DNA of 11,276 nucleotides from Candidatus Xenobia bacterium. GTDB taxonomy: Bacteria > Vulcanimicrobiota > Xenobia > Xenobiales > QWHO01. Below, piece by piece: positions 711 through 11,276 of the stretch. The stretch spans positions 1 through 11,276 of the forward strand of contig BTUM01000141.1 in the NCBI GenBank assembly GCA_045863235.1. The letters are read 5' to 3'. How positions within the stretch are numbered: position 1 is the stretch's first letter; each line of letters starts with the position of its first letter. The notes beneath the pieces were generated by a model that saw only the letters and a list, made by a program, of their open reading frames with translations, was not told the origin of the DNA and did not search any database. The position numbers were made by a program, and so were the translations under genes.

Positions 711-1766
711 GTGAAGTACGCGATCAGCGGCACCCTGCTCCAGACCCTGACCCTCGAGCTGACCCCCGGCGACCAGCTCTACAGCCAGACCCACAGCATG
801 TCCTGGATGAGCGACGGGGTGAGAGTCTCCACCCACACCGGCGGAGGGCTCTGGGAGGGCGTCAAGCGTGCTTTCTCGGGCTCAAGTCTCTTCATCACCG
901 AGTTCGAAGTGGACCGGCCCGCCCGGGTGGCCTTCGCGGCCCGCTATCCCGGCACCATCGTGCCCCTCGAGCTGAAAGCCGGCGAGAGCATCCTGTGCCG
1001 GCGCGAGAGCTTTCTTTGCGCCCAGAAGTCGGTTTCGCTCGAGCTCGCTTTCCATAATCCCGATGTCTGGCTGTTCGGCTCTCAGGGGCTTGCGATGCAG
1101 AAGGTTACCGGACCCGGACTGGTCTTCGTCGATCTCTCGGGCGAGCTGGTGGAGCAGACTCTGGCCGACGGCGAGCGACTGCACCTTCGCCCCGGGCATG
1201 TGGGGATGTATGAGCCTGGTGTGCGCTTCGAGGTCAACATGGTGGAGGGGGTCAGCAACGCCCTCTTTGGCCAGGGCCTCTTCATGGCCACCCTGACCGG
1301 CCCGGGACGCGTCTGGCTGCAGACCATGCCACTCGAGCACCTGGTGGACGCGCTGGGCCTGCGGCGTGGAAAGACCAGCGTAACTGTCAGTCGCAGCAGC
1401 CGCGAGCGCGATGACGAGCCCGAGAGGCCCGCTCCCGAGCCCACCCCGCGCCCGAGCCGGGGGATGGTCAGCAAACTGTTCGACTTCCTCTTCGACGACG
1501 GCCCCGTGCTCGGCCCCGGCCCCCCGGGCCGCAAGCTCGACACGGTGCGCGACCGCACCGACGACGTGCTGGACAAAGCGCCCCGCAGCAAGTCCGGCAG
1601 CTGGTTCTCCTTCGGGCCCGCTTCGGGTTCACGCGACGACTCGAGCCCGAGCAGCTCCAGCCCGGGCATCGGCTTCAGCTGGGGCGGAGGCTCGAGCTCC
1701 TCCGACAGCCACTCCTCCCGAGACGATGACAACGACCGCCGCGGAGGCTACGGGCTCAACTTCTGA
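711..1766 (+). CDS. TIGR00266 / AIM24 family protein with C-terminal low-complexity extension
   Basis: GTG start. The N-terminal ~215 aa show AIM24 hallmarks (MKYAISGT.LQ.L.LEL.PG...SM.WM; G.SLFITEF; YPGTI.PLEL; FLCAQ.SV; G.G.VFV...GELVE..L..GE; G.GLFMATLTGPGRVWLQTMP). The last ~130 aa are rich in S/G/D/R/P. Confidence 0.9.
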   Translation: MKYAISGTLLQTLTLELTPGDQLYSQTHSMSWMSDGVRVSTHTGGGLWEGVKRAFSGSSLFITEFEVDRPARVAFAARYPGTIVPLELKAGESILCRRESFLCAQKSVSLELAFHNPDVWLFGSQGLAMQKVTGPGLVFVDLSGELVEQTLADGERLHLRPGHVGMYEPGVRFEVNMVEGVSNALFGQGLFMATLTGPGRVWLQTMPLEHLVDALGLRRGKTSVTVSRSSRERDDEPERPAPEPTPRPSRGMVSKLFDFLFDDGPVLGPGPPGRKLDTVRDRTDDVLDKAPRSKSGSWFSFGPASGSRDDSSPSSSSPGIGFSWGGGSSSSDSHSSRDDDNDRRGGYGLNF

Positions 1767-3180
1767 GCAGCTGGTTCAGCTCGCCCCGGTCGAAGTAGAC
1801 CCCCTCGCAGCTGCGGCACAGGTCGAGATGCACTCCTTTGTTGTCGGCCATTTGCAGGAGCGCCTCGCAGCGGGGGCAGCGGCGCTCTCCCTCGGGGACG
1901 AGCGGGCGATCCGAGACGACGCTGACCGGCTCGAGCAGCCAGCCCGGCAGCGAGCGCATTCTGGCCAGCGCCTTCAACTCATGGCGGTCAAGCCAGAGCC
2001 CGGCACAGGAGGGGCACAGGTCCACCTCCACCTTACCCACCTTCTGCGCCTTCAGGGGCGACCGGCAGCCGGGGCACAGGAGCAAAGCGCTGGTGGCGGC
2101 CGCAACTGAGGAGGAGCTCGTAGTGGCCGCATCCCCGCCGCCCGAGCCGCAGCACTCGCAGCTCGAGCAACAACAGTCGACCGTGGGATCGCTGGGGGTA
2201 CAGCACCCGCTGTGAGAGCTGCCGCTGTCACAGCAGCCTCCGCAGCAACCGCCGTGGTCGCCGCTGCCACAGCAACCGTCGCAGCCGCTGCAGTCCCCGC
2301 CGCCACAGTCGCAACTGCCCGCCTGCAGGCGGCGCCAGGAGGGCACCCAGGACCCGTGCACCGGCAGACGGTCGGCCAGCGAGTCGAGCAGGGGGTCGAT
2401 CAGGCTGCCGAGCGGCTCGAGGTCGGTGAAGCACCGCAGGGCAGAGCTCAGCTCCTCCAGCGAGCCATGCAGCAGGGTGGCGACGCGGGTCTCTTGCCAG
2501 ACGGGTCCCCAGCACGCCGCCAGGGCGTTGAAACGACCCTGGCGGGCATCCTCAACGAAGTCCTGGGCCGCATCCAGGTAGTAGAGAAACCGGCCCAGTA
2601 TCTGGCCCAACCGACCCAGGTCGGCCCGACGCTCCGGGCGGCCCGACAGATCGCCCACGTGCTCGAGGATGGCTCCGATGGTCTCGGCGGTGGGCTGGCT
2701 GAGCTGGCCCAAGGAGGATCTGGCCTGCTCCACCAGCGCCTGACGGTGGGGCAGGGCACGGATGATGGCCAGCGGAAAACCGGTGTCCCTCAGCACGTTG
2801 TCCACCCGCTTCTGGTAAGCGGCCACCCAGGCGCCGGCCAGGCGGCGGGTCAGTCCCCGCTCGTCCTGACGGTCGTCCTCGAGCTTGGCCGAGAGCAGGG
2901 CCAGGTTGAGCGCGGCCAGTGCGCGGCGGCCCCAGACCGGCAGGGGGGCTACCCGCACCTTGCGCCAGGGCAAGGCGGTGCAGGGCGCCGGACGGGCCTC
3001 GCCCGGCCCCTCCAGGCTGGAGAGCAAGACGCTCAGGAAGGTCAGGTCGTAGTTCATCCACAGCGAGGCCGGCTTGCCGCCGAACTCGGCCATCAGATGG
3101 CAGCTCGCGCAGAAGTGGGCCTGGTAGGCAGGACGCGCGCAGCCCAGGCGGCGCTTGAGAATGCCCAGCTGTCCGAACAT
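1756..3180 (-). CDS. DUF5685 family protein fused to a Cys/Gly-rich segment and two zf-TFIIB zinc-ribbon domains
   Basis: Start placed at ATG 3180 (MFGQLG..., 1 nt after the ligase TGA). DUF5685-like motifs: Y.AHFCASC...NYDLTFLSVLL, KLEDDRQDE, GRFLYYLDAAQDFVED...GRFNAL. 18 Cys in 55 aa (2149-2313). Two CPxC-x16-C-x2-C-x-G-x-(W/Y)-(L/F)DRxEL repeats (~1966-2076 and ~1765-1878). Confidence 0.85.
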   Translation of the reverse strand: MFGQLGILKRRLGCARPAYQAHFCASCHLMAEFGGKPASLWMNYDLTFLSVLLSSLEGPGEARPAPCTALPWRKVRVAPLPVWGRRALAALNLALLSAKLEDDRQDERGLTRRLAGAWVAAYQKRVDNVLRDTGFPLAIIRALPHRQALVEQARSSLGQLSQPTAETIGAILEHVGDLSGRPERRADLGRLGQILGRFLYYLDAAQDFVEDARQGRFNALAACWGPVWQETRVATLLHGSLEELSSALRCFTDLEPLGSLIDPLLDSLADRLPVHGSWVPSWRRLQAGSCDCGGGDCSGCDGCCGSGDHGGCCGGCCDSGSSHSGCCTPSDPTVDCCCSSCECCGSGGGDAATTSSSSVAAATSALLLCPGCRSPLKAQKVGKVEVDLCPSCAGLWLDRHELKALARMRSLPGWLLEPVSVVSDRPLVPEGERRCPRCEALLQMADNKGVHLDLCRSCEGVYFDRGELNQLLRS

Positions 3181-3181
3181 G

Positions 3182-5113
3182 TCAGCCCAGCCCTTCGCGC
3201 ATGTGGCGCCGCTCAATCTCCTCCAGGGTGGCGATCTCCCCCACCGACATTTCGCCCGCCCGAACCTGCTTGATGCGCGGCGAGCGCAGCGAGAGCACGC
3301 CGCCCACGTCGCGCACCACTCCCTCCAGGGCCACCGTGACCACCAGGTAGGGGGCCAGCTCGAGCCCGGCGGCCGTGCGCTGGTGGCCGCGATGCTCGAT
3401 GGGGCGCCCGGTGAGCAAATTGTGCTGCAAGATGGCCCCGGCGATCTTCAGGGTGGTGGACTCGTCCACGCCCCCCACCGTGCCCACCAGGTGCAGCCCC
3501 TCCGGTCCCCGGCAAGAGATGAGGTAAGCGTCGAACATGCGCTTGCCGGCCGTGCTGGGATCGCTCCAGAAGGCGCCCGTCAGCACCAGGTCCAGCGTCT
3601 CCTCAGGCTTTCGCTTCATCCAGTTGGGGGTGCGGGTGGCCAGGGGATAGGCCGAGCTCTCGATCTTGAGCATGCCGCCCTCGTAGCCCTGAGCCCGGAA
3701 CTGCTCGTAGAGCCGGTTCATCTCCTCGCGGCTGGCGACCCGCTTACCCCGGCTCAGCTCCAGGGGCAGGGGCAGCGGGACCTGCGAGGCAACGGCCAGC
3801 AGGCGCTCGAGGCGGGCGCGGCGCTCGGAGAAGGGGCGGTCGGTCAGGTCCACTCCGTCGAGGTAGAGCAGATCGAAGGCGGTATAGCGCAGGTTGACCC
3901 GGGCCGCCCCCGGCTCGCCCCGCAGGAAGGTGTGCACCTCGTAGACCGTGCAGGGGCGCAGCATGCCGCTGCGGTCCAGGGTACTGCCGTGCAGCTCGCC
4001 ATCCAGGATGGCGCTGTGGCAGGGCAGGACGCGAGCCAGGGGGGCCAGGCCCGGGATCAGCTCGCTCCAGTCGTGGCGGCGCCGGGTGTAGCCGGCTACC
4101 TCCAGTTGGCCGCGCTCGTCGGTCGCTTTGTGCAGCATCAGGCGGATGCCGTCGTACTTGCACTCGAACCAGGCCGGGAACTTGACCTCGGCCGGCACGG
4201 TGGCCCCGGCCAGGGCCGGCAGAATGGGCGAGAGCGGCTTCAAAGCGACCTTCTTGAGGCCAGGAACGCCCTCGTGCTCGAGGATGCGGGCCAGCTCGAA
4301 GGGGTCGGTGAGCGCCGCCACCGTGGCCAGCACCTCTTTGGACACCTGGAACTGAGCCGCCAGGTGCTCGTAGACCAGCTCGCTCCGACCGCTCAGGCTC
4401 AGGTGCACCTTGTTGAGGATGAGGGCCGACAGCACGTAGGCCTCCAGCCGGCCGCAGCGCAGGAACAGGTCCTCCAGGGCCCGCATGCGGTGAAACGGCT
4501 CGGATCCTTTGAGAAAACGCAGCACGGTCAGCAACTCGGCGGCCGTCAGGTCGGAGCGGTCGCGCGTGGTGCGCATGGCAAAGAGCGAAGCCAGGTCGCC
4601 CGCTCCCACGATGCTGTGGCGAATCTGCGAGACGGTGCGGAAGGCCAGCCGGGCCAGCAGCCGGGTCAGCGTATCCTCACGCACTCCCGGGGGCTTGCCC
4701 ATGAACGGGTCCCCCATCACCAGCGCCACCTTCTCCTGCAGGCTCAAGCCCAGCTTGCGGGCCAGGAAGTCGCCCACCAGGCGCGAGCGCTGCTCGCTCG
4801 TGAGCGGCGGGGTGGCTGTCAGGCCGAAGAGCTTGCCCACCCGCTCGGGGGCCAGGCCCATCAAGGGCAGAAAGAAGCCCCGGCACAGGCTGTAGAAGGG
4901 GATCGAGTCCAGGGCCTCGTCAGCGACGTCAGGCTCGGCCTCGAGCAGAGAGTAGGCGGCGAACAGCAGGCTGGCGGGAAGCTCGAGCAGCTTCTCCAGC
5001 TCTTCCAGGCTCTGGCGCCGGGCCCCGATGCCGGGGCGAGCCAGGCGCACGGCCCGGATGGCTCCCCCCTCGAGGAACCACTCCCGGATGACCTCGGGCG
5101 AAGCCGCCCTCAT
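3182..5113 (-). CDS. lig: ATP-dependent DNA ligase (archaeal/LigB-type: N-terminal DNA-binding, adenylation and OB domains)
   Basis: Motif I ECKYDGIRL (KYDG at 4148-4159), III AILDGEL, IIIa YTAFDLLYLDG, IV GYEGGMLK, V WMKRKPEETLDLVLTGA, VI SLRSPRIKQVR. The DBD-like helix LEAYVLSALIL is present. ATG overlaps the upstream stop (ATGA, 5110-5113). Confidence 0.93.
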   Translation of the reverse strand: MRAASPEVIREWFLEGGAIRAVRLARPGIGARRQSLEELEKLLELPASLLFAAYSLLEAEPDVADEALDSIPFYSLCRGFFLPLMGLAPERVGKLFGLTATPPLTSEQRSRLVGDFLARKLGLSLQEKVALVMGDPFMGKPPGVREDTLTRLLARLAFRTVSQIRHSIVGAGDLASLFAMRTTRDRSDLTAAELLTVLRFLKGSEPFHRMRALEDLFLRCGRLEAYVLSALILNKVHLSLSGRSELVYEHLAAQFQVSKEVLATVAALTDPFELARILEHEGVPGLKKVALKPLSPILPALAGATVPAEVKFPAWFECKYDGIRLMLHKATDERGQLEVAGYTRRRHDWSELIPGLAPLARVLPCHSAILDGELHGSTLDRSGMLRPCTVYEVHTFLRGEPGAARVNLRYTAFDLLYLDGVDLTDRPFSERRARLERLLAVASQVPLPLPLELSRGKRVASREEMNRLYEQFRAQGYEGGMLKIESSAYPLATRTPNWMKRKPEETLDLVLTGAFWSDPSTAGKRMFDAYLISCRGPEGLHLVGTVGGVDESTTLKIAGAILQHNLLTGRPIEHRGHQRTAAGLELAPYLVVTVALEGVVRDVGGVLSLRSPRIKQVRAGEMSVGEIATLEEIERRHMREGLG

Positions 5114-6174
5114 GCTGGCGGGAAGGGCTTCATCTCTTCAGGTTGAGCCGGGTGCACGGTGAGCGTCCCCAGCCCCTCTTTCTGGGCCAGCCGCAGCACG
5201 TGCGGGAAGATGGGCGTGGTGACGCACTTGATCGCCCGGATCACGTCGATCACGTCGCGGTACTTGCCGCCCCACAGGGCGGCCTCTTCCTTGGAGCCGA
5301 GGCTCATCTCCTCGATCAAGAAGACGGCGTCGGCGGTGTGCATCAGCGCCTCGCCGCCCACCGGCATGCCGGTGTCGCGGATCTGCCCGATGGTGAGACA
5401 GGTCACGCCCTTCTCGTGGTTGTAGGTCTTGAGGGCGCTCAGGTTGTCGGCCGTTCGCGACTTGGTGGGGTCGAGCGTGTTGAGCGAGTCGATCACCACG
5501 AAGCGCACCTCCTCGCGCTCGATGATGTAGCGGTAGCGGTTGACGAACTCCTCCCAGGTCTGGCCCTTGTGATACTGGGCGTTGAGCACCAGGATGTTGG
5601 CCAGCACCTTCTCGGTGAAGTCTTGCTCCGACAGGCCCGTGACGCCCATTCCGATGCGCACCAGCCGCGAAGAGAGGGGCTCGCGGCCCGAGCCGGCCTC
5701 GTCCAGAAAGCCCTCCTCTGCGATCACGAAGAGGCACTTCATGCCCCCTTGCGCGACCCGCACCATGGCCTCGATGGCCGAGCGCGTCTTGCCTTTGCCG
5801 GGCGGGCCGGCAAAAGCGATGGTGCAGCCCTTGGGGATGCCGCCCAGGGCGTGCCGGCCGTCGGGGGTGAGACACAGCAGGTCGAGCACCTCCTGCACCG
5901 GCAAGGGCTGCTGGTCGCGCAGCAGCGAGCCTTTCGTGGCCGGGCGGATCAGCTCGGCCTCCAGGCCCGGGTCGGGCTTGTCCTCGGGAACAGCGTAAGA
6001 GAAGGGTTGGGCGGCCGCGTCCACGGCTGGAGCGGGAGCCGAGCCGCTCATGGCCATCATCATCTGCATCATCTGCTGCATCATGGCGGCCGGATTGGGT
6101 CCACCCGGGGCCGGGGGATAACCGCCCGGATAGCCAGCGGGCGGGGGATAGCCTGGATGCTGCATCTCGCTCAT
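5110..6174 (-). CDS. Single-domain KaiC/RAD55-like RecA-superfamily ATPase with Pro/Met/Gln-rich N-terminal extension
   Basis: GGIPKG preceding Walker A GPPGKGKT (5785-5808); LFVIAEE (KaiC-type EE); Walker B FVVIDS; sensor TCLTIGQ; GGEALMHTADAVFLI. SD-like GGGAGGGAG upstream. From memory, the C-terminal insert resembles archaeal AF_0795-type KaiC-domain proteins. Confidence 0.87.
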   Translation of the reverse strand: MSEMQHPGYPPPAGYPGGYPPAPGGPNPAAMMQQMMQMMMAMSGSAPAPAVDAAAQPFSYAVPEDKPDPGLEAELIRPATKGSLLRDQQPLPVQEVLDLLCLTPDGRHALGGIPKGCTIAFAGPPGKGKTRSAIEAMVRVAQGGMKCLFVIAEEGFLDEAGSGREPLSSRLVRIGMGVTGLSEQDFTEKVLANILVLNAQYHKGQTWEEFVNRYRYIIEREEVRFVVIDSLNTLDPTKSRTADNLSALKTYNHEKGVTCLTIGQIRDTGMPVGGEALMHTADAVFLIEEMSLGSKEEAALWGGKYRDVIDVIRAIKCVTTPIFPHVLRLAQKEGLGTLTVHPAQPEEMKPFPPA

Positions 6175-6261: not shown

Positions 6262-7005
6262 GTGTTCGACTTTCTAAAACGCCCCGAACCGGTGGAGCTG
6301 GTGGAGATCTCCGCCGCCACCGTCACTTTCCGCAGCAAGAAGTCCCACCCCGAAGGGAAAGTGCTGCGCATTCGCTTTGAGTTGACCGACGGCACCAAGA
6401 AGCGCGAGTTCAAACTTGCCGTCATGGTTCAATCCTGTCGTCCCCACACCGACAAGCGTTTCGTCTGCGTCAGCCAGGTGCTGGAAACGCGCAGTCTCTC
6501 CTCCATCTACGCCGCCACCCAGGAAGGCCTCAACCAGTCGGGCGAGGCTGCCAGGCGCAAAGCGCGCCTGCCGGCCCGGCTGCGGGTGGTTTCGCACGGA
6601 ATCCACGCTCTTTCCAAGGACTTCAATGCAGACGGCATGCAGCTCGAGGTACTCGAGCCGGTCGAGGTCGGCACCCAGATGGTCCTGACCGTCGAACTGC
6701 AGACCACCCTGTTCCCGATGCTGCTGGTGCCGGCCAAGGTGGTCTGGTGCCGCGAGGTGGGGCGCAACGCCTACCTGCTGGGGATCCAGTTCCAGGAGCT
6801 GGCGCCCGCTCTGCAGTACCAGCTCACCGAGTACGAGACCTACCTCAAGCAAGCCGACGAAGGCGAAATCGCGCTCCGCCAGGCCAACACCTATGACAAG
6901 CACCTGCGCAAGATCTATCCCAAGGAGATCTCGGGCCTGCCGGCCGATCCCAAGGCTCCCGTGCCCGAGCACCTGCTCAACCAGGCGGGCCAGGAATCGA
7001 AGTAG
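6262..7005 (+). CDS. PilZ domain-containing protein (putative c-di-GMP receptor)
   Basis: GTG start. RxxxR (RRKAR, 6553-6567), DFNADG variant of (D/N)xSxxG (6619-6636), AKVVWCR and YLLGIQF. The N-terminal half looks like a degenerate PilZ barrel (EISAATVTF...PEGKVLRIRFEL). Confidence 0.85.
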   Translation: MFDFLKRPEPVELVEISAATVTFRSKKSHPEGKVLRIRFELTDGTKKREFKLAVMVQSCRPHTDKRFVCVSQVLETRSLSSIYAATQEGLNQSGEAARRKARLPARLRVVSHGIHALSKDFNADGMQLEVLEPVEVGTQMVLTVELQTTLFPMLLVPAKVVWCREVGRNAYLLGIQFQELAPALQYQLTEYETYLKQADEGEIALRQANTYDKHLRKIYPKEISGLPADPKAPVPEHLLNQAGQESK

Positions 7006-7014
7006 GAGGACTGG

Positions 7015-7749
7015 TCAGGGGGTCTTGAAGCGCACCTCCTCGGGCACTTCGACCCCGGCCAGCCAGCGCTCCATGGCCTCGAGGTCATTGGCCAGCCAGT
7101 GGGCGCCGCGAATCAGATCCAGCCGCTGCCCGTCCAGATAAGCGTCCTGCAGGCCTAACCGCAGCCCCTCACGCACGGCGTCGCCGGCATAGAGCACCGG
7201 CGCAACGGTAGGCGTCTCGGGGGGAGCCTCGGGGTGCTCGTAGCCGGCCTTGCAGGGCTCCACCTCCAGGCTGTGCCAGGCCCGGCAGGCCACCGGTCGA
7301 GCCTCGTAGACCGAGCACTGGTCGTTCTCCAGAAACGGACAGGCCAGGTTGCGCCGGGGCCGCTCTGGCCCGAGCGCCCGGACCACCTCATCCGCCCGGG
7401 CCAGCCGCTCGATGAGCGCCTGGTAGCGTTCGGGGGAGAAGGTGGCCCGCGCGAACATGAGCGCGTTCACGATCTCGGGCAGCGAGGCCGCCACCGGAAT
7501 GTGGCAACAGTACGAGCACCCCTTCCTGCAAGCCAGCTTCGGCTTGAACACCTCGTCGAGCGTCTTGCGAGCCAGCTCGTAGAAGTCGCCCGCGTTCATG
7601 CCCGCTTCCACCGTCGCTTCCAGCGTCTGGGAGCGCTGAAAGATCTGGGCCGCCGAGGCGCGCTGCCCGTCGTGAGCCCGGGTCAGCACGTCTTTGGTCC
7701 AATCCGAGAGCGCCTTGCGAGCCTTCTTCTCACGCGAGTGCCGTCCCAT
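7015..7749 (-). CDS. YkgJ family cysteine-cluster protein (CxxCxxCC, putative Zn/Fe-chelating)
   Basis: ACRKGCSYCC and CPFLENDQCSVYEARPVACR. ATG overlaps the upstream stop (TGATG, 7747-7751). Confidence 0.9.
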   Translation of the reverse strand: MGRHSREKKARKALSDWTKDVLTRAHDGQRASAAQIFQRSQTLEATVEAGMNAGDFYELARKTLDEVFKPKLACRKGCSYCCHIPVAASLPEIVNALMFARATFSPERYQALIERLARADEVVRALGPERPRRNLACPFLENDQCSVYEARPVACRAWHSLEVEPCKAGYEHPEAPPETPTVAPVLYAGDAVREGLRLGLQDAYLDGQRLDLIRGAHWLANDLEAMERWLAGVEVPEEVRFKTP

Positions 7750-9131
7750 CAGGGGGTCAAGAAGCCCTCGATGACCGGGAAGGAGACGGCGGCGTCGGTG
7801 ACCGCGCTGGTATGGCTGACCGCCACCACCAGGGCCTGGAGCTGTCCGATGCCCGGGAAGTTGGCGCTGACCAGATCCACCAGGCCATCATCGAAGTCCT
7901 GCCCCATGATCCAGTCGGCCAGGGTGAGCTCGAATCCCGGATCGTTGCCTCCGAAGGTGAAGTAGAGCCACTGGGGGTGATTCTGGGCGGCCCCCTGGTT
8001 CAGCGCGGCCAGCGCCGTGCTGCCGTCGCGCAGGTCGTTGAGGCCCGCCGAGCTCAGATCGGGGTCACACTTGGAGCCGTCCCGGTTGGTGAAGTCCATC
8101 ACGTCGTTGAGAACCAGGTAGCGCACCACCCGCTGGAACAGGCTCAGCTTGCCCTGCAAGATGTTGATCACGCCGCTGCCGGTGTGGGGGCTGCACAGGA
8201 AGGCGGCCCGATTGTCGCTGGCGGCCACGGGGAGCTGATTGTTCTCGATGGCCTCGCGGGACACCAGGCCGCCCTCGCTGTGGGCCACGTGACGCCAGTT
8301 GCTGTTCGGATTGACGGCTGAGAGCGCGGTGTAGAACTGGGCCAGATAACCGCCGTTGTCGGAGATGGAGTCGAGAGTGTCATACTCGAACCCCACGATG
8401 CCAGTGGCCACGCCCTGGTCGAGCAGGTAGGTGGCCATGGGGGCGAACTCCTGGCTGCGAATGTTGGAGCCCAGGCCGTGCACGATCATGAGCGGCCGGG
8501 GCCCCAGGTTGGGGATGGGGGCCACCGGCTGGCCCAGGCTGATCACCAGCTCGAACTTGCTGGTGGTGGGATTGAAGGAGTAGCCGTTGTAGGTGCCCCA
8601 GTCGACGTGCGGGGGGTAGTCGAAGATCGACTCCACGAAGCCGACCTGAAAGGAGGTGATCTCGAGGCCCCGGCCCTGGACGCCGCCATCGCTGGGGGGA
8701 ACCAGCGCCTGCACGGAGCCGTCGCTCTGAGGGACGAACTCGAGCGGCACCAGGAGGCCTCCCGTGACCAGCACCGGGAAGACCTCGTTGTCGGTGGCAG
8801 GGGGCGTCATGGTGACGGAGAGGCCATCGTGGCTGATTCCGCCCAGATCGACCTGAAGGTGGGGTCCTACCGCCCGGAAATCGGGGTCGGCCGGCTGCAC
8901 CGTCGGCTCGACGGTGGAAAGCTGGACGGTGGCGTCGGCCTCGAGCGAATCGGGAGGGATGTTGACCTGATGCTGCTCGAGCTGGAGCTGAGCCCCCGTG
9001 GCGTCGTCCACCAGCGCGGTCAGGTTATCAGGAGGCGCCACCGGATTGATGGTGGCGTTCGGGCTGTTCAGGCTGCCCCCACCGCAACCCATGAGAGCAA
9101 GAAGAACAAGTAAAGAGAGGATTTTTCGCAT
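7749..9131 (-). CDS. Lipoprotein with C-terminal alpha/beta hydrolase (lipase/PGAP1/DUF676-like) domain
   Basis: Start placed at ATG 9131 (MRKILSLLVLLALMGC, lipobox LMGC; SD-like AAAGGGG upstream). Oxyanion VHGLGS, nucleophile AHSEGG, SPHTGS, DDGLV and C-terminal VSHT. Confidence 0.82.
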   Translation of the reverse strand: MRKILSLLVLLALMGCGGGSLNSPNATINPVAPPDNLTALVDDATGAQLQLEQHQVNIPPDSLEADATVQLSTVEPTVQPADPDFRAVGPHLQVDLGGISHDGLSVTMTPPATDNEVFPVLVTGGLLVPLEFVPQSDGSVQALVPPSDGGVQGRGLEITSFQVGFVESIFDYPPHVDWGTYNGYSFNPTTSKFELVISLGQPVAPIPNLGPRPLMIVHGLGSNIRSQEFAPMATYLLDQGVATGIVGFEYDTLDSISDNGGYLAQFYTALSAVNPNSNWRHVAHSEGGLVSREAIENNQLPVAASDNRAAFLCSPHTGSGVINILQGKLSLFQRVVRYLVLNDVMDFTNRDGSKCDPDLSSAGLNDLRDGSTALAALNQGAAQNHPQWLYFTFGGNDPGFELTLADWIMGQDFDDGLVDLVSANFPGIGQLQALVVAVSHTSAVTDAAVSFPVIEGFLTP

Positions 9132-9162: not shown

Positions 9163-11124
9163 CTACTGCAAACGACGGACGAAGCTCTCCTCAAAGTTCC
9201 GCTCGCGCACTTTCCGACCGTTCTCGCTCAACACGCGCCGGTAGAAGGCGTGGAAGTGGTCGGCGTCCGACTGCACCCGCATGAGGGTCTGCAGCGCAAG
9301 GATGCGGCCGGGCAGCTCGATCGTGACGCTGGACTCGGCGTGCATGCTCGCGTTGGCCGGTTGAGCGGAGTCGACGCGGTGAGTCAGCTTCTCGTGCACC
9401 CGAAACGTGCGGTCCTGGATGCGAAAGGCGTCCTCCCCCTCCCAGATCACCAGGCCGGGTTTGCGTTCGTAACGGAAAGGCATTCCCCGCGAGGCGAGCG
9501 ACTCGGCGTCGGGACGGGTCTCGCGCGGCTCGGGGGCGGGCAGCTCGGGCGCCTGGCCAATCGCGGGCACGACCGGCAGCTCGAGCCAGGTCCGCTCTCC
9601 AGGCTTCAGGTGGGTGGTCATCTTGTGCGGCGAGGGCCAGACCATCTGGAACTGGGCGTTGGAGACCGAGAGGCGAATGCGATGTCCGGGCTGGAAGGTC
9701 CAGGTGGTGAAGTGAAGCTCGAGGGGCAGGTCCACCAGCTCGTCGAGGGGGAGCGGGGAGGGAGAGGTCCGGGAGGCCCGCTGGCTGCCGTTGAGGACCG
9801 CCCCCGTGACCAGTTGCACCTTGCCGTCGGGAGCCACGTCCTCCAGTCGCACCGACCAGTGGGCCAGGGGAGCGCTGGAGCGCGCCCGCAGGTGCACCCG
9901 CGGAAGGCCGACGATGCCCACCGGCTCGGTCACAGGAGCTGAATCGAAGACCAGGGCTCCTTCGGCATCGGCGCTGACGTCTTCGGTGGCATCATCCCAC
10001 CAGACGCCGGCCTGCACGCCTCGCCCCGGAGCATACTGCAACGACAACTCAGGACCATCGGCAGGCCGGGCTTCCAGGCGGTTGCGCAGGGGATAAAGCC
10101 GCGTCAGGCGAGTGCCCCGAACAGGCCACTCCTCCAAGCGCCAGCCGGCCCCGCGCTGGTAGACCAGCAGTGGTTTCTCGGCCTGCAGGCCCGGACCCCG
10201 GTCCTTGAGCCAGAAGTCCCACCATTCCAGGGCGCGCTGGCGCCACTCGTAGTTGGGCCCGGGCGTGCCGGTATCGGGCCAGTCGTGGCCCCAGTTGCCC
10301 ACCTCCACCTTGACCAGCGGGGCCGACTGCAAGAGCCGCAAAGGCGTGTCCCGGTAGAAGTCCTGCAAGCCGCCGATGGCGTAGACAGGGACTTTGAGCG
10401 CGCCCGGTCGGAAGCGTTGCGAGCGCTGCCGCCAGAACGGGCCGTCCTGCTGGTGGCGCAGGTAGGTGAAAAACCAGGGCTCGCGGTCGAAGCGGTCACG
10501 GAAGTAGGCCTCGTCGATCCGGTACTCGAGCGAGTCGGGCAGGGCGTTGTCGCGGTTGATCTCCATGTGGTACTGGTCATAGTGCAGCACGCCATCGAGG
10601 TAGTGCACGTCATCCTGGTAGAGGTCGTCGGAGGCGTGCACGGGCAAGATGGCCTTCAGGGCGGGAGGGTTGCGCATGGCCACCTGGATGGCATTGAACC
10701 CGCCCCAGGAGATGCCGAACATGCCCACCCGCCCGTTGGTCCAGCTCAGGCGGGAGGCCTGGTCGATCACGGTCAGCGCGTCCTTGATCTCTTGCTCGGA
10801 GTATTCGCAAGGCGGCAGCACGCCTTCCGACGAGCCCGTGCCCCGGATGTCCACCTTCAAGGTGGCGTAGCCCCGGCGGGCAAAGTAGGCGTGCAGTGGG
10901 TAGTCGCGCTGGTAGAACATGTCGTCCTTGCGGTAGGGCAGCATCTCGAGCAGCACGGGGAACCTCTCGCCCGGCTCGAGCGGCTGGGGGCGAAACCAGG
11001 TCACGCTCAGGCGCACGCCATCGGGCATGGTCATCCAGCCTCGCTCGACCGTGAACTCGTAGCGCGCCGGATAGCCGGCCGCCAGGCTCAGGAGGGCCGC
11101 CAAAACGAGCAGGTGCCGCACCAT
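9163..11124 (-). CDS. CocE/NonD family hydrolase (peptidase S15, X-Pro dipeptidyl-peptidase-like), secreted
   Basis: Signal peptide MVRHLLVLAALLSLAAG; MPDGVRLS; PVLLEMLPYRKDD; VDIRGTGSSEG; nucleophile GISWGG; GGLQD; WGHDWP; PepX_C-like C-terminal domain (VRLEDVAPDG...VTGAVLN...FQPGHRIRLSVS). Confidence 0.93.
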   Translation of the reverse strand: MVRHLLVLAALLSLAAGYPARYEFTVERGWMTMPDGVRLSVTWFRPQPLEPGERFPVLLEMLPYRKDDMFYQRDYPLHAYFARRGYATLKVDIRGTGSSEGVLPPCEYSEQEIKDALTVIDQASRLSWTNGRVGMFGISWGGFNAIQVAMRNPPALKAILPVHASDDLYQDDVHYLDGVLHYDQYHMEINRDNALPDSLEYRIDEAYFRDRFDREPWFFTYLRHQQDGPFWRQRSQRFRPGALKVPVYAIGGLQDFYRDTPLRLLQSAPLVKVEVGNWGHDWPDTGTPGPNYEWRQRALEWWDFWLKDRGPGLQAEKPLLVYQRGAGWRLEEWPVRGTRLTRLYPLRNRLEARPADGPELSLQYAPGRGVQAGVWWDDATEDVSADAEGALVFDSAPVTEPVGIVGLPRVHLRARSSAPLAHWSVRLEDVAPDGKVQLVTGAVLNGSQRASRTSPSPLPLDELVDLPLELHFTTWTFQPGHRIRLSVSNAQFQMVWPSPHKMTTHLKPGERTWLELPVVPAIGQAPELPAPEPRETRPDAESLASRGMPFRYERKPGLVIWEGEDAFRIQDRTFRVHEKLTHRVDSAQPANASMHAESSVTIELPGRILALQTLMRVQSDADHFHAFYRRVLSENGRKVRERNFEESFVRRLQ

Positions 11125-11165: not shown

Positions 11166-11276
11166 GCCTGAGGCGCCGGGATCGCGCCTCATGAGGCGCA
11201 CCTTTGCTGCCTCAAGACCCCAGCACAGCCTGAGGCACCTCGAACGCGCCTCATGAGGCGCACCTTTGCTGCCTCA
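11166..11276. repeat. 62-bp-period tandem repeat built from 23-bp palindromic units TGAGGC-N11-GCCTCA; truncated by the window end
   Basis: Identical 32-mer CGCGCCTCATGAGGCGCACCTTTGCTGCCTCA at 11183-11214 and 11245-11276. GCCTGAGGC at 11166-11174 and 11228-11236 shares the same 62-bp offset. Perfect 16-bp palindrome GCGCCTCATGAGGCGC at 11184-11199 and 11246-11261. Confidence 0.85.

What the first reader, a model, noticed from the sequence alone, without database searches (positions are those of the whole stretch)
1756..6174. Translationally coupled operon: KaiC/RAD55-like ATPase + archaeal-type ATP-dependent DNA ligase + DUF5685/zinc-ribbon fusion - candidate undescribed DNA repair or processing module
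Seen: three co-oriented genes with an ATGA overlap (5110-5113) and a 1-nt gap (TGA-C-ATG, 3184-3178), which strongly suggests co-translation. Known: bacterial ATP-dependent ligases of this type usually sit with Ku/LigD (NHEJ), with Prim-PolC (LigC), or in the Lhr helicase-exonuclease-metallophosphoesterase cluster. None of these partners is in the window. Single-domain KaiC/RAD55-like ATPases are mainly archaeal RecA paralogs or signalling hubs. Inference: the ATPase may load or regulate the ligase in a dedicated repair, recombination or anti-phage pathway, with the zinc-rich third protein as an accessory or sensor. I do not recall a characterised system with this composition.
Basis: partly seen in the sequence, partly recalled or inferred. 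Interest (0 to 1): 0.72.

Follow-up and report, generated by a model that had tools for sequence, protein, structure and literature searches.

The report
Obligate RecA-fold ATPase–DNA ligase pair
A DNA-sealing enzyme and a RecA-like ATP-burning protein were found only together in scattered bacteria and are predicted to bind each other, which points to an undescribed two-part DNA-repair device; the third gene is only a local neighbour.

Summary
The three genes and both junctions are as described, but the module has two genes, not three. The ATPase and this ligase subfamily occurred together in 31 of 904 genomes sampled from four phyla and never alone (123/124). They are adjacent in 44 of 80 loci. 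Where split, the ligase lay elsewhere in 27 of 28 genomes. Their trees agree, and one viral contig carries the pair. A complex prediction passed: 0.65 against a best control of 0.00, a mark reached by 116 of 157 solved and 2 of 215 mismatched pairs. The ATPase's N-terminal arm docks on a family-specific ligase extension and on the loop where Pyrococcus ligase carries its PCNA-binding motif. DUF5685 is adjacent only within the genus (2 of 80). Best reading (0.5): an accessory repair complex in which the RecA/KaiC-fold ATPase tethers an archaeal-type ligase to DNA, possibly in place of PCNA. No activity was measured. Five literature searches aimed at the pairing found no description of it. The scan noted the same pair earlier on another genome.

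The parts
5110..6174 (-). Single-domain RecA/KaiC-fold ATPase, 354 aa; core member of the pair
   Evidence: PF06745; AlphaFold2 pLDDT 86; best folds PH0284 Z 23.8 (rmsd 2.8, 216 aligned), KaiC Z 23.5, RadA/Sms Z 21.1; Walker A K129, E153/E154, D229, Q264 invariant in 120 of 120 sequences
6052..6096 (-). Conserved Met/Gln-rich helix (residues 27-41) inside a Pro/Gly-rich N-terminus; role unexplained
   Evidence: Q34, M35, M36 invariant in 120 sequences; helix 28-41 in the model; not listed in the predicted ligase interface
5929..6006 (-). ATPase N-terminal arm (residues 57-82), the predicted ligase-docking segment
   Evidence: Interface list; P57, F58, P78 invariant and D68, G70, L71, R77 at 97-99%
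5221..5229 (-). K316-C-V318: the trans-acting K-x-R/K motif with its second basic residue replaced by Val
   Evidence: K316 and V318 in 120 of 120; aligned to the host's RadA/Sms KNR and RecA KNK
3182..5113 (-). ATP-dependent DNA ligase with DNA-binding, adenylation and OB domains plus an N-terminal extension, 643 aa; core member of the pair
   Evidence: pLDDT 92; best match Pyrococcus ligase, E 6.5e-59; catalytic motifs conserved
4799..5113 (-). Family-specific N-terminal extension of the ligase (about residues 1-105) with the conserved S70-I-P-F-Y-S-L segment; main predicted docking site for the ATPase
   Evidence: Matches to solved ligases start at profile position 102-107 or later; no Pfam match for residues 1-100; interface; S70, P72, F96, G97 at 92-98%
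4148..4159 (-). Ligase motif I KYDG with adenylated Lys319
   Evidence: K319, D321, G322 invariant in 119 sequences
3278..3289 (-). Ligase motif VI L-R-[D/S/G]-P, lacking the Phe of archaeal L-R-F-P
   Evidence: Position 611 is D 67, S 32, G 19, H 1, F 0 of 119; aligned to the Phe of Pyrococcus/Thermococcus ligases
1756..3180 (-). DUF5685 + Cys/Gly-rich linker + two zinc ribbons, 474 aa; downstream neighbour, not a member of the module
   Evidence: adjacent in 2 of 80 loci; independent distribution

Best explanation
A two-protein accessory DNA-repair complex. SHOWN by computation: the genes are co-inherited as a unit, usually translationally coupled; the ligase keeps all catalytic motifs; the ATPase keeps its ATP-binding and catalytic residues. 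PREDICTED: the ATPase's N-terminal arm binds the ligase's extension and DNA-binding domain. INFERRED: the ATPase oligomerises like its RecA/KaiC/RadA relatives, binds DNA through its Q-I-R...G-G-x-A-L loop motif, and, switched by ATP, tethers or loads the ligase at nicks or DNA ends. This is the job PCNA does for the ligase's archaeal relatives and Ku does for LigD. The loss of the arginine finger suggests slow or partner-stimulated hydrolysis, that is, a clamp or switch rather than a processive motor. The pathway is not the replicative one, since the hosts checked keep NAD-dependent LigA and RecA. I put the physical and functional partnership at about 0.85, and this tether/loader mechanism at about 0.5.
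For: Co-occurrence in 31 of 904 genomes with none holding one gene alone: 10/201, 13/301, 6/251, 2/151 (123/124; four of the 31 are the centre genomes). Adjacent in 44 of 80 loci; ligase elsewhere in 27 of 28 split cases. 19 of 20 well-supported ATPase splits occur in the ligase tree; distance correlation r 0.85, permutation maximum 0.26. Complex score 0.65, best of 3 controls 0.00; the mark was reached by 116 of 157 solved and 2 of 215 mismatched pairs; runs agree in at least 67% of contacts; partner pLDDT at least 74. The interface includes ligase residues 177-193, which align with the QKSFF loop of Pyrococcus ligase, four residues shorter here; that motif is the PCNA-binding PIP box (PMC6212441, passages). 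A PIP-like pattern was found in 1 of 119 ligases, and PCNA (PF00705) in 0 of 5 host genomes. Loop-2 flanks match RecA's NQIR...GGxAL, and the loop length equals RadA/Sms. LigA in 5 of 5 plus the own genome; RecA in 5 of 5.
Against: No activity, DNA binding or oligomer was tested. The complex was folded 1:1: in RecA-fold proteins the segment just before the core often contacts the next protomer (own knowledge), so the arm may be otherwise occupied in a ring. Predicted ligase interface residues are only slightly more conserved than the rest of the N-terminal region (mean top-residue frequency 0.60 against 0.55), and the residues of the PIP-equivalent loop are variable. Loop 1 is shorter than in RecA and RadA, which weakens a DNA-binding claim. 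The closest folds are KaiC-like proteins. Kin are not independent, so tree congruence partly reflects shared descent. One starred split conflicts between the trees, and one of 28 split-case genomes (G206) had no ligase match.
Confidence: 0.5

Rival explanations
1. KaiC-like regulatory switch: the ATPase binds the ligase but not DNA, and turns it on or off according to its nucleotide state or a stress signal.
For: Best structural matches are KaiC-like PH0284, KaiC and SSO2452. The nearest family is TIGR03878 (35 bits; sister proteins reach 89-117 bits). KaiC-like EE pair; arginine finger lost; short loop 1.
Against: The RecA-type QIR...GG.AL motif is nearly invariant. No sensor or signalling gene recurs as a third partner near either gene; only generic Ser/Thr kinases, on either strand, appear in 11-15 loci.
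Confidence: 0.25
2. The ATPase is a RadA/Sms-like motor or strand-annealing protein that remodels DNA (branch migration, end pairing) and hands the product to its bound ligase.
For: Loop-2 length and the R-A-x-K strand match the host's RadA/Sms; RadA fold Z 21.1. None of 27 pair-carrying handles reached through loci of mostly Planctomycetota records had RadA/Sms, against 7 of 15 pair-less Planctomycetota-sample genomes.
Against: KNR is replaced by K-[S/C]-V in 120 of 120; no zinc finger or C-terminal Lon-like domain. RadA/Sms coexists with the pair in the own genome, in 7 of 8 pair-carrying relatives, and in 5 of 6 Myxococcota-sample genomes (one split across contigs), so it is not a general replacement. 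The Planctomycetota contrast may be a lineage effect.
Confidence: 0.15
3. The pair is mobile-element or phage-conflict cargo (repairing DNA cut by host or phage nucleases) rather than chromosomal repair.
For: Patchy spread (1-5% of genomes per phylum). Planctomycetota monophyly rejected in the ligase tree (AU p 3e-48). One IMG/VR contig carries both genes with a GTGA overlap among ParB, SNF2-type helicase and MazG genes.
Against: No PADLOC match. No match in 50,697 phage or 72,556 plasmid records. Two single-protein viral scans found nothing. Within lineages the pair is retained (6 of 6 genomes of one genus), and no defence or mobility gene recurs nearby.
Confidence: 0.07
4. Three-gene module as first proposed, with the DUF5685/zinc-ribbon protein as accessory or sensor.
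For: 1-nt gap in this genome; adjacency kept in two same-genus genomes.
Against: Adjacent in 2 of 80 loci; found in 2 of 13 pair-carrying genomes outside the order and 5 of 6 pair-less relatives.
Confidence: 0.03

Closest known systems
Archaeal replicative ATP-dependent ligase with PCNA (Pyrococcus/Thermococcus Lig)
   Same: DBD-adenylation-OB architecture; best sequence and fold matches (E 6.5e-59); the predicted partner touches the DBD loop that carries the PIP box
   Different: About 105 extra N-terminal residues; QKSFF motif absent; motif VI Phe replaced; PCNA not found in 5 hosts; hosts keep LigA; the partner is a RecA-fold ATPase
Bacterial LigB in the Lhr helicase-exonuclease-phosphoesterase cluster (PMC10140301, section 16)
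   Same: Bacterial ATP-dependent ligase with PF04675 DBD
   Different: TIGR04120 65.5 bits against cut-off 400; no Lhr, exonuclease or phosphoesterase family recurs among neighbours
Ku-LigD NHEJ and LigC/Prim-PolC
   Same: Accessory ligase with a dedicated partner that brings it to DNA (functional analogy)
   Different: No polymerase or phosphoesterase domain, no Ku neighbour; the own genome has separate Ku-linked and LigD-like ligases (named from sequence appearance, not a family scan)
TIGR03878 KaiC-domain proteins (thermo_KaiC_2; the label 'AF_0795 family' is recalled)
   Same: Nearest named ATPase family; shares the insertion before the last strands; the next tier of homologues scores 89-117 bits with it
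   Different: 35 bits against cut-off 232; G-K-T rather than G-K-S, and K-S/C-V rather than x-C-R; ligase link of that tier unknown
Bacterial RadA/Sms
   Same: Loop-2 length, GPPG-type Walker A and R-A-x-K strand; fold Z 21.1
   Different: No zinc finger or Lon-like domain; KNRFG lost; 22.9 bits against cut-off 403
Archaeal single-domain KaiC-like/aRadC ATPases PH0284, SSO2452, PH0186
   Same: Top structural matches
   Different: 17-24% identity; no ligase partnership found in the papers searched

Membership tests
ATP-dependent DNA ligase (PF01068, DBD-containing) | KxDG motif I and motifs III, IIIa, IV, V | tested here: met
   K319, D321, G322, D371, E373, F413, D414 invariant; E478, K483, K500, K502 at 99% of 119
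ATP-dependent DNA ligase (PF01068, DBD-containing) | DBD + adenylation + OB fold | tested here: met
   Model pLDDT 92; Foldseek E 1e-34 to archaeal ligases, TM 0.66-0.68 to LIG1-DNA complexes
ATP-dependent DNA ligase (PF01068, DBD-containing) | ATP-dependent nick sealing | not testable with these tools
   Needs an assay
Archaeal PCNA-dependent ligase | PIP-like QKSFF motif in the DBD and PCNA in the host | tested here: not met
   Motif loop lacks it; PIP-like pattern in 1 of 119; PF00705 in 0 of 5 genomes, controls ring in 4 archaea
LigB of the Lhr-Exo-Lig-MPE cluster (TIGR04120) | Score over cut-off and cluster context | tested here: not met
   65.5 against 400 bits; no such neighbours recur
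LigD/LigC NHEJ ligases | Pol/PE domains or Ku/Prim-Pol neighbour; score over cut-off | tested here: not met
   TIGR02779 109 against 228 bits, TIGR02776 95 against 373; no such Pfam domains
RecA-superfamily ATPase | Walker A, catalytic Glu, Walker B, Gln sensor, RecA fold | tested here: met
   VIA-align Z 23.8, rmsd 2.8, 216 aligned
RecA recombinase | TIGR02012 cut-off, KNK motif, long loops 1 and 2 | tested here: not met
   19.6 against 325 bits; short loops and K-x-V; true RecA present separately
RadA/Sms | C4 zinc finger, KNRFG motif, C-terminal Lon-like domain | tested here: not met
   None present; 22.9 against 403 bits
KaiC clock protein | Tandem ATPase domains | tested here: not met
   Single domain; no longer homologue at E 1e-10 among 621-2000 aa proteins, weak evidence
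TIGR03878 thermo_KaiC_2 | Score over 232 bits; C-R motif | tested here: not met
   35.4 bits; K-C-V instead
RecA-superfamily ATPase | Ring or filament formation and ATP hydrolysis | not tested
   The single complex job went to the ATPase-ligase pair
Known anti-phage systems (PADLOC 2.0) | Match to a system protein model | tested here: not met
   0 families for all three proteins; the library dates from 2023

The most novel reading that the evidence does not exclude
Bacteria that acquired an archaeal-type ligase without PCNA paired it with a RecA/KaiC-fold ring that serves as its dedicated ATP-switched clamp or loader, docking at the former PCNA face. The ligase, having lost the motif-VI Phe, seals a non-standard substrate (ribonucleotide-containing or damaged nicks, or DNA ends). 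This would be a new class of ligase cofactor and a new repair pathway spread across at least four phyla and one virus-like element.
Probability: 0.3. Interest if true: 0.9.

Novelty: new variant of a known kind. Interest (0 to 1): 0.72.

Why it matters
Known bacterial ATP-dependent ligases are assigned to pathways by their partners (Ku, Prim-Pol, Lhr cluster). This is a further partner class, with unusually strict co-inheritance and a concrete predicted interface. It also gives a single-domain KaiC/RAD55-like ATPase, a group whose targets are mostly unknown (own knowledge), a named binding partner. Two soluble proteins and a 26-residue docking arm make the question directly testable. Cultured carriers exist among the records (Minicystis rosea, Uabimicrobium amorphum).

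Tried and rejected
Third conserved gene: clustering of ORFs of 80 aa or more in 81 loci and of 40 aa or more within 2.5 kb in 111 loci gave only lineage-local synteny and generic kinases. The PC4-like third gene of an earlier scan note was not seen there, and PF02229 was not found in the own genome. Replacement of LigA, RecA or RadA/Sms: rejected. Fused ATPase-ligase protein: none found, weak evidence. Phage/plasmid collections: no match; single-protein viral scans empty. Context of the divergent ATPase tier (including an NCBI-named Thorarchaeota protein, 43% identical): not obtained; alignments were too diverse to scan and the metagenome scan returned one 24-residue match only. Expression: RNA-run contigs cover the whole window about evenly, so DNA carry-over cannot be excluded and nothing is claimed. 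No sigma-70-like promoter found. ESM Atlas added no function for the ATPase or for DUF5685. Viral fold search of the ligase gave only distant ligases. Literature: five searches aimed at the pairing showed no description in their listings; PMC10140301 (passages, sections 16 and 18) mentions only one contig with a RecA-domain gene near a nuclease-ligase fusion, a different case. Searches on KaiC-like ATPases gave nothing usable. Makarova et al. 2017 on archaeal KaiC-like ATPases was not held and was not read; subscription papers and supplements were not seen and could mention the pair. Tree rows dropped: of 82 candidates, 14 lacking a fetched ligase covering 450 or more residues were left out, leaving 68. 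Eight ATPase loci without an adjacent ligase, all with under 3.5 kb downstream, were not followed to their genomes. The locus scan kept the best 80 of 98 relatives.
Full report
OBSERVATION. Families: PF06745 ATPase; PF01068 ligase with weak PF04675 and PF04679; PF18937 plus two PF13453 ribbons. None of the three reaches an NCBIfam cut-off. The window is a whole contig of an 8.36-Mb, 97.6% complete genome. Its closest relative is titled Candidatus Eremiobacteraeota (95% identity).

WHAT BELONGS TOGETHER. A GTDB scan with the ATPase found 98 relatives and kept 80, at 58-95% identity, titled mostly Planctomycetota, Myxococcota and Acidobacteriota (some titles are probably wrong). The same ligase subfamily lies downstream on the same strand in 44 of 80. 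Counting one viral locus, 36 of 45 gaps are 15 nt or less and 18 overlap. For 28 of the 36 loci without an adjacent ligase I searched the whole genome: 27 hold the ligase elsewhere at E below 1e-40. Paired searches of evenly drawn samples returned the same genomes for both genes: 10 of 201 in the own phylum, 13 of 301 around a Planctomycetota centre (46, 47), 6 of 251 around a Myxococcota centre (64, 65), 2 of 151 around an Acidobacteriota centre (123, 124). That is 31 of 904 with both and none with one; four of the 31 are the centres, and kin are not independent. No third gene recurs across phyla. DUF5685 is adjacent in 2 of 80 loci, both same-genus. It was found in 2 of 13 pair-carrying genomes outside the order and 5 of 6 pair-less relatives. 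It is a bystander.

HISTORY. In trees of 68 paired sequences (quick IQ-TREE, LG+G4), 19 of 20 starred ATPase splits occur in the ligase tree and 33 of 41 the other way, with one conflict; patristic r is 0.85. Both trees split Planctomycetota into several groups, and the AU test rejects their monophyly in the ligase tree (p 3e-48). This fits transfer of the pair as a unit, though submitter labels, unrooted trees and long branches limit the claim. One IMG/VR contig carries both genes overlapping. No match was found in the GenBank phage or PLSDB plasmid sets.

THE ATPase. The model (pLDDT 86) is a single RecA-fold domain closest to PH0284 (Z 23.8), KaiC (23.5), SSO2452 (21.9) and RadA/Sms (21.1). 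Walker A, E153/E154, D229 and Q264 are invariant. Aligned with the host's own RecA, RadA/Sms and two proteins whose motifs look like DnaB, it keeps Q-I-R...G-G-E-A-L around a RadA-length loop 2, has a very short loop 1, and replaces K-N-R/K with K-[S/C]-V in 120 of 120 sequences. Reading the lost residue as the arginine finger is established knowledge for this fold, applied by inference; invariant R306 or near-invariant R328 might substitute. A profile search of 1.84 billion representatives shows a compact family, a divergent tier that includes a Thorarchaeota-named protein, and then TIGR03878-like proteins. It is not a RadA/Sms substitute in general.

THE LIGASE. The model (pLDDT 92) and profile match Thermococcales ligases best, so 'archaeal-type' is supported by best hits, not by a rooted tree. 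Catalytic motifs are intact. Three departures stand out: an N-terminal extension of about 105 residues with a conserved S-I-P-F-Y-S-L segment; loss of the QKSFF stretch, which PMC6212441 (two passages read) names as the PCNA-binding PIP box of Pyrococcus ligase; and D/S/G in place of the motif-VI Phe in all but one of 119 sequences, that one having His. That this Phe corresponds to human LIG1 F872 is recalled. A preprint (10.1101/2024.11.07.622578, abstract only) reports that F872 substitutions change handling of mismatched, oxidised and ribonucleotide ends. So substrate preference may differ from archaeal ligases, in a direction I cannot predict. Hosts checked keep LigA and RecA and show no PCNA. 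In both Uabimicrobium genomes this was the only PF01068 match.

THE COMPLEX. Ligase plus ATPase residues 24-354 scored 0.65 (three runs 0.64-0.68) against a best control of 0.00. The mark was reached by 116 of 157 solved and 2 of 215 mismatched pairs, counts that hold only roughly with my own alignments. Runs agree in at least 67% of contacts and partner pLDDT is at least 74. I know of no solved complex of this kind from which the pass could be remembered, but did not search for one specifically. ATPase residues 57-82 contact ligase residues 66-99, 115-122 and 157-193, that is, the extension and the PIP-equivalent loop. Against over-reading: the fold was 1:1, the arm could serve oligomerisation in a ring, and interface conservation on the ligase is only slightly above background (0.60 against 0.55).

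MECHANISM. Shown: co-inheritance, coupling, intact motifs. Predicted: direct binding. Inferred: an ATP-switched oligomer that tethers or loads the ligase on DNA in an accessory repair pathway (0.5). Rivals are a KaiC-like on/off regulator (0.25), a RadA-like remodelling motor (0.15), mobile or anti-phage cargo (0.07) and the three-gene module (0.03).

COMPARISON AND NOVELTY. It fails membership in the PCNA-dependent, Lhr-cluster, Ku/LigD and LigC systems and in RecA, RadA/Sms, KaiC and TIGR03878, while working most plausibly like a ligase-plus-recruiter module. Five searches of open-access text aimed at the pairing showed no description; subscription papers, the 2017 KaiC-like ATPase survey and supplements were not seen. 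It is an AI note, not independent evidence. Its PC4-like third gene was not found here, and its archaeal claim was not tested beyond one ATPase homologue. Verdict: a real, apparently undescribed two-gene module; new variant of the ligase-partner kind; interest 0.72.

Noticed in passing
window:103-520: Broken ORFs that look like the start of a tyrosine recombinase (resemblance by eye; no Pfam match). Contigs of all four runs laid carry 73 extra bases between 207 and 208, so the window may hold a deletion or assembly gap here.
   Followed up: partly
window:6052-6096: Nearly invariant Met/Gln-rich helix (NPxxMMQMMQMM) after a variable Pro/Gly/Met-rich low-complexity N-terminus of the ATPase; outside the predicted ligase interface; could be an oligomerisation or third-partner site.
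   Followed up: partly
L116:7854-10759 (IMG/VR contig, 76.9 kb): Divergent copy of the pair with a GTGA overlap, next to ParB, DUF3150, AAA ATPase, DUF1257, SNF2-type helicase, nuclease and MazG genes.
   Followed up: partly
proteins P0290-P0327: Sister tier of TIGR03878-like ATPases with C-R-x-C in place of K-S-V; several have long N-terminal extensions that look like winged helices by eye; one is named Promethearchaeota by NCBI.
   Followed up: partly
L009, L021, L024, L044, L059, L061, L068: In one Myxococcota-like clade the pair is flanked by genes that look like an SbcC-type SMC ATPase and a PolX/PHP polymerase, both on the opposite strand (named by eye). Possible local repair cluster.
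   Followed up: no
window:1756-3180: DUF5685 domain has Asp-rich DDxxD-like stretches suggestive of an isoprenoid-synthase-type fold (by eye, untested), followed by a Cys/Gly-rich linker and two zinc ribbons.
   Followed up: no
G000 C16, C2, C51, C48, C34: The genome holds four other PF01068 matches and LigA, so at least six ligase-domain genes; one lies right after a Ku-like ORF.
   Followed up: partly
window:711-1766, 6262-7005, 7015-7749, 7749-9131, 9163-11124: Unrelated neighbours: AIM24 family, PilZ domain, CxxCxxCC, lipoprotein-like hydrolase and CocE/NonD hydrolase.
   Followed up: no
window:11169-11276: Repeated palindrome-like stretches at the contig end (for example 11176-11215 recurs at 11237-11276; seen).
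   Followed up: no
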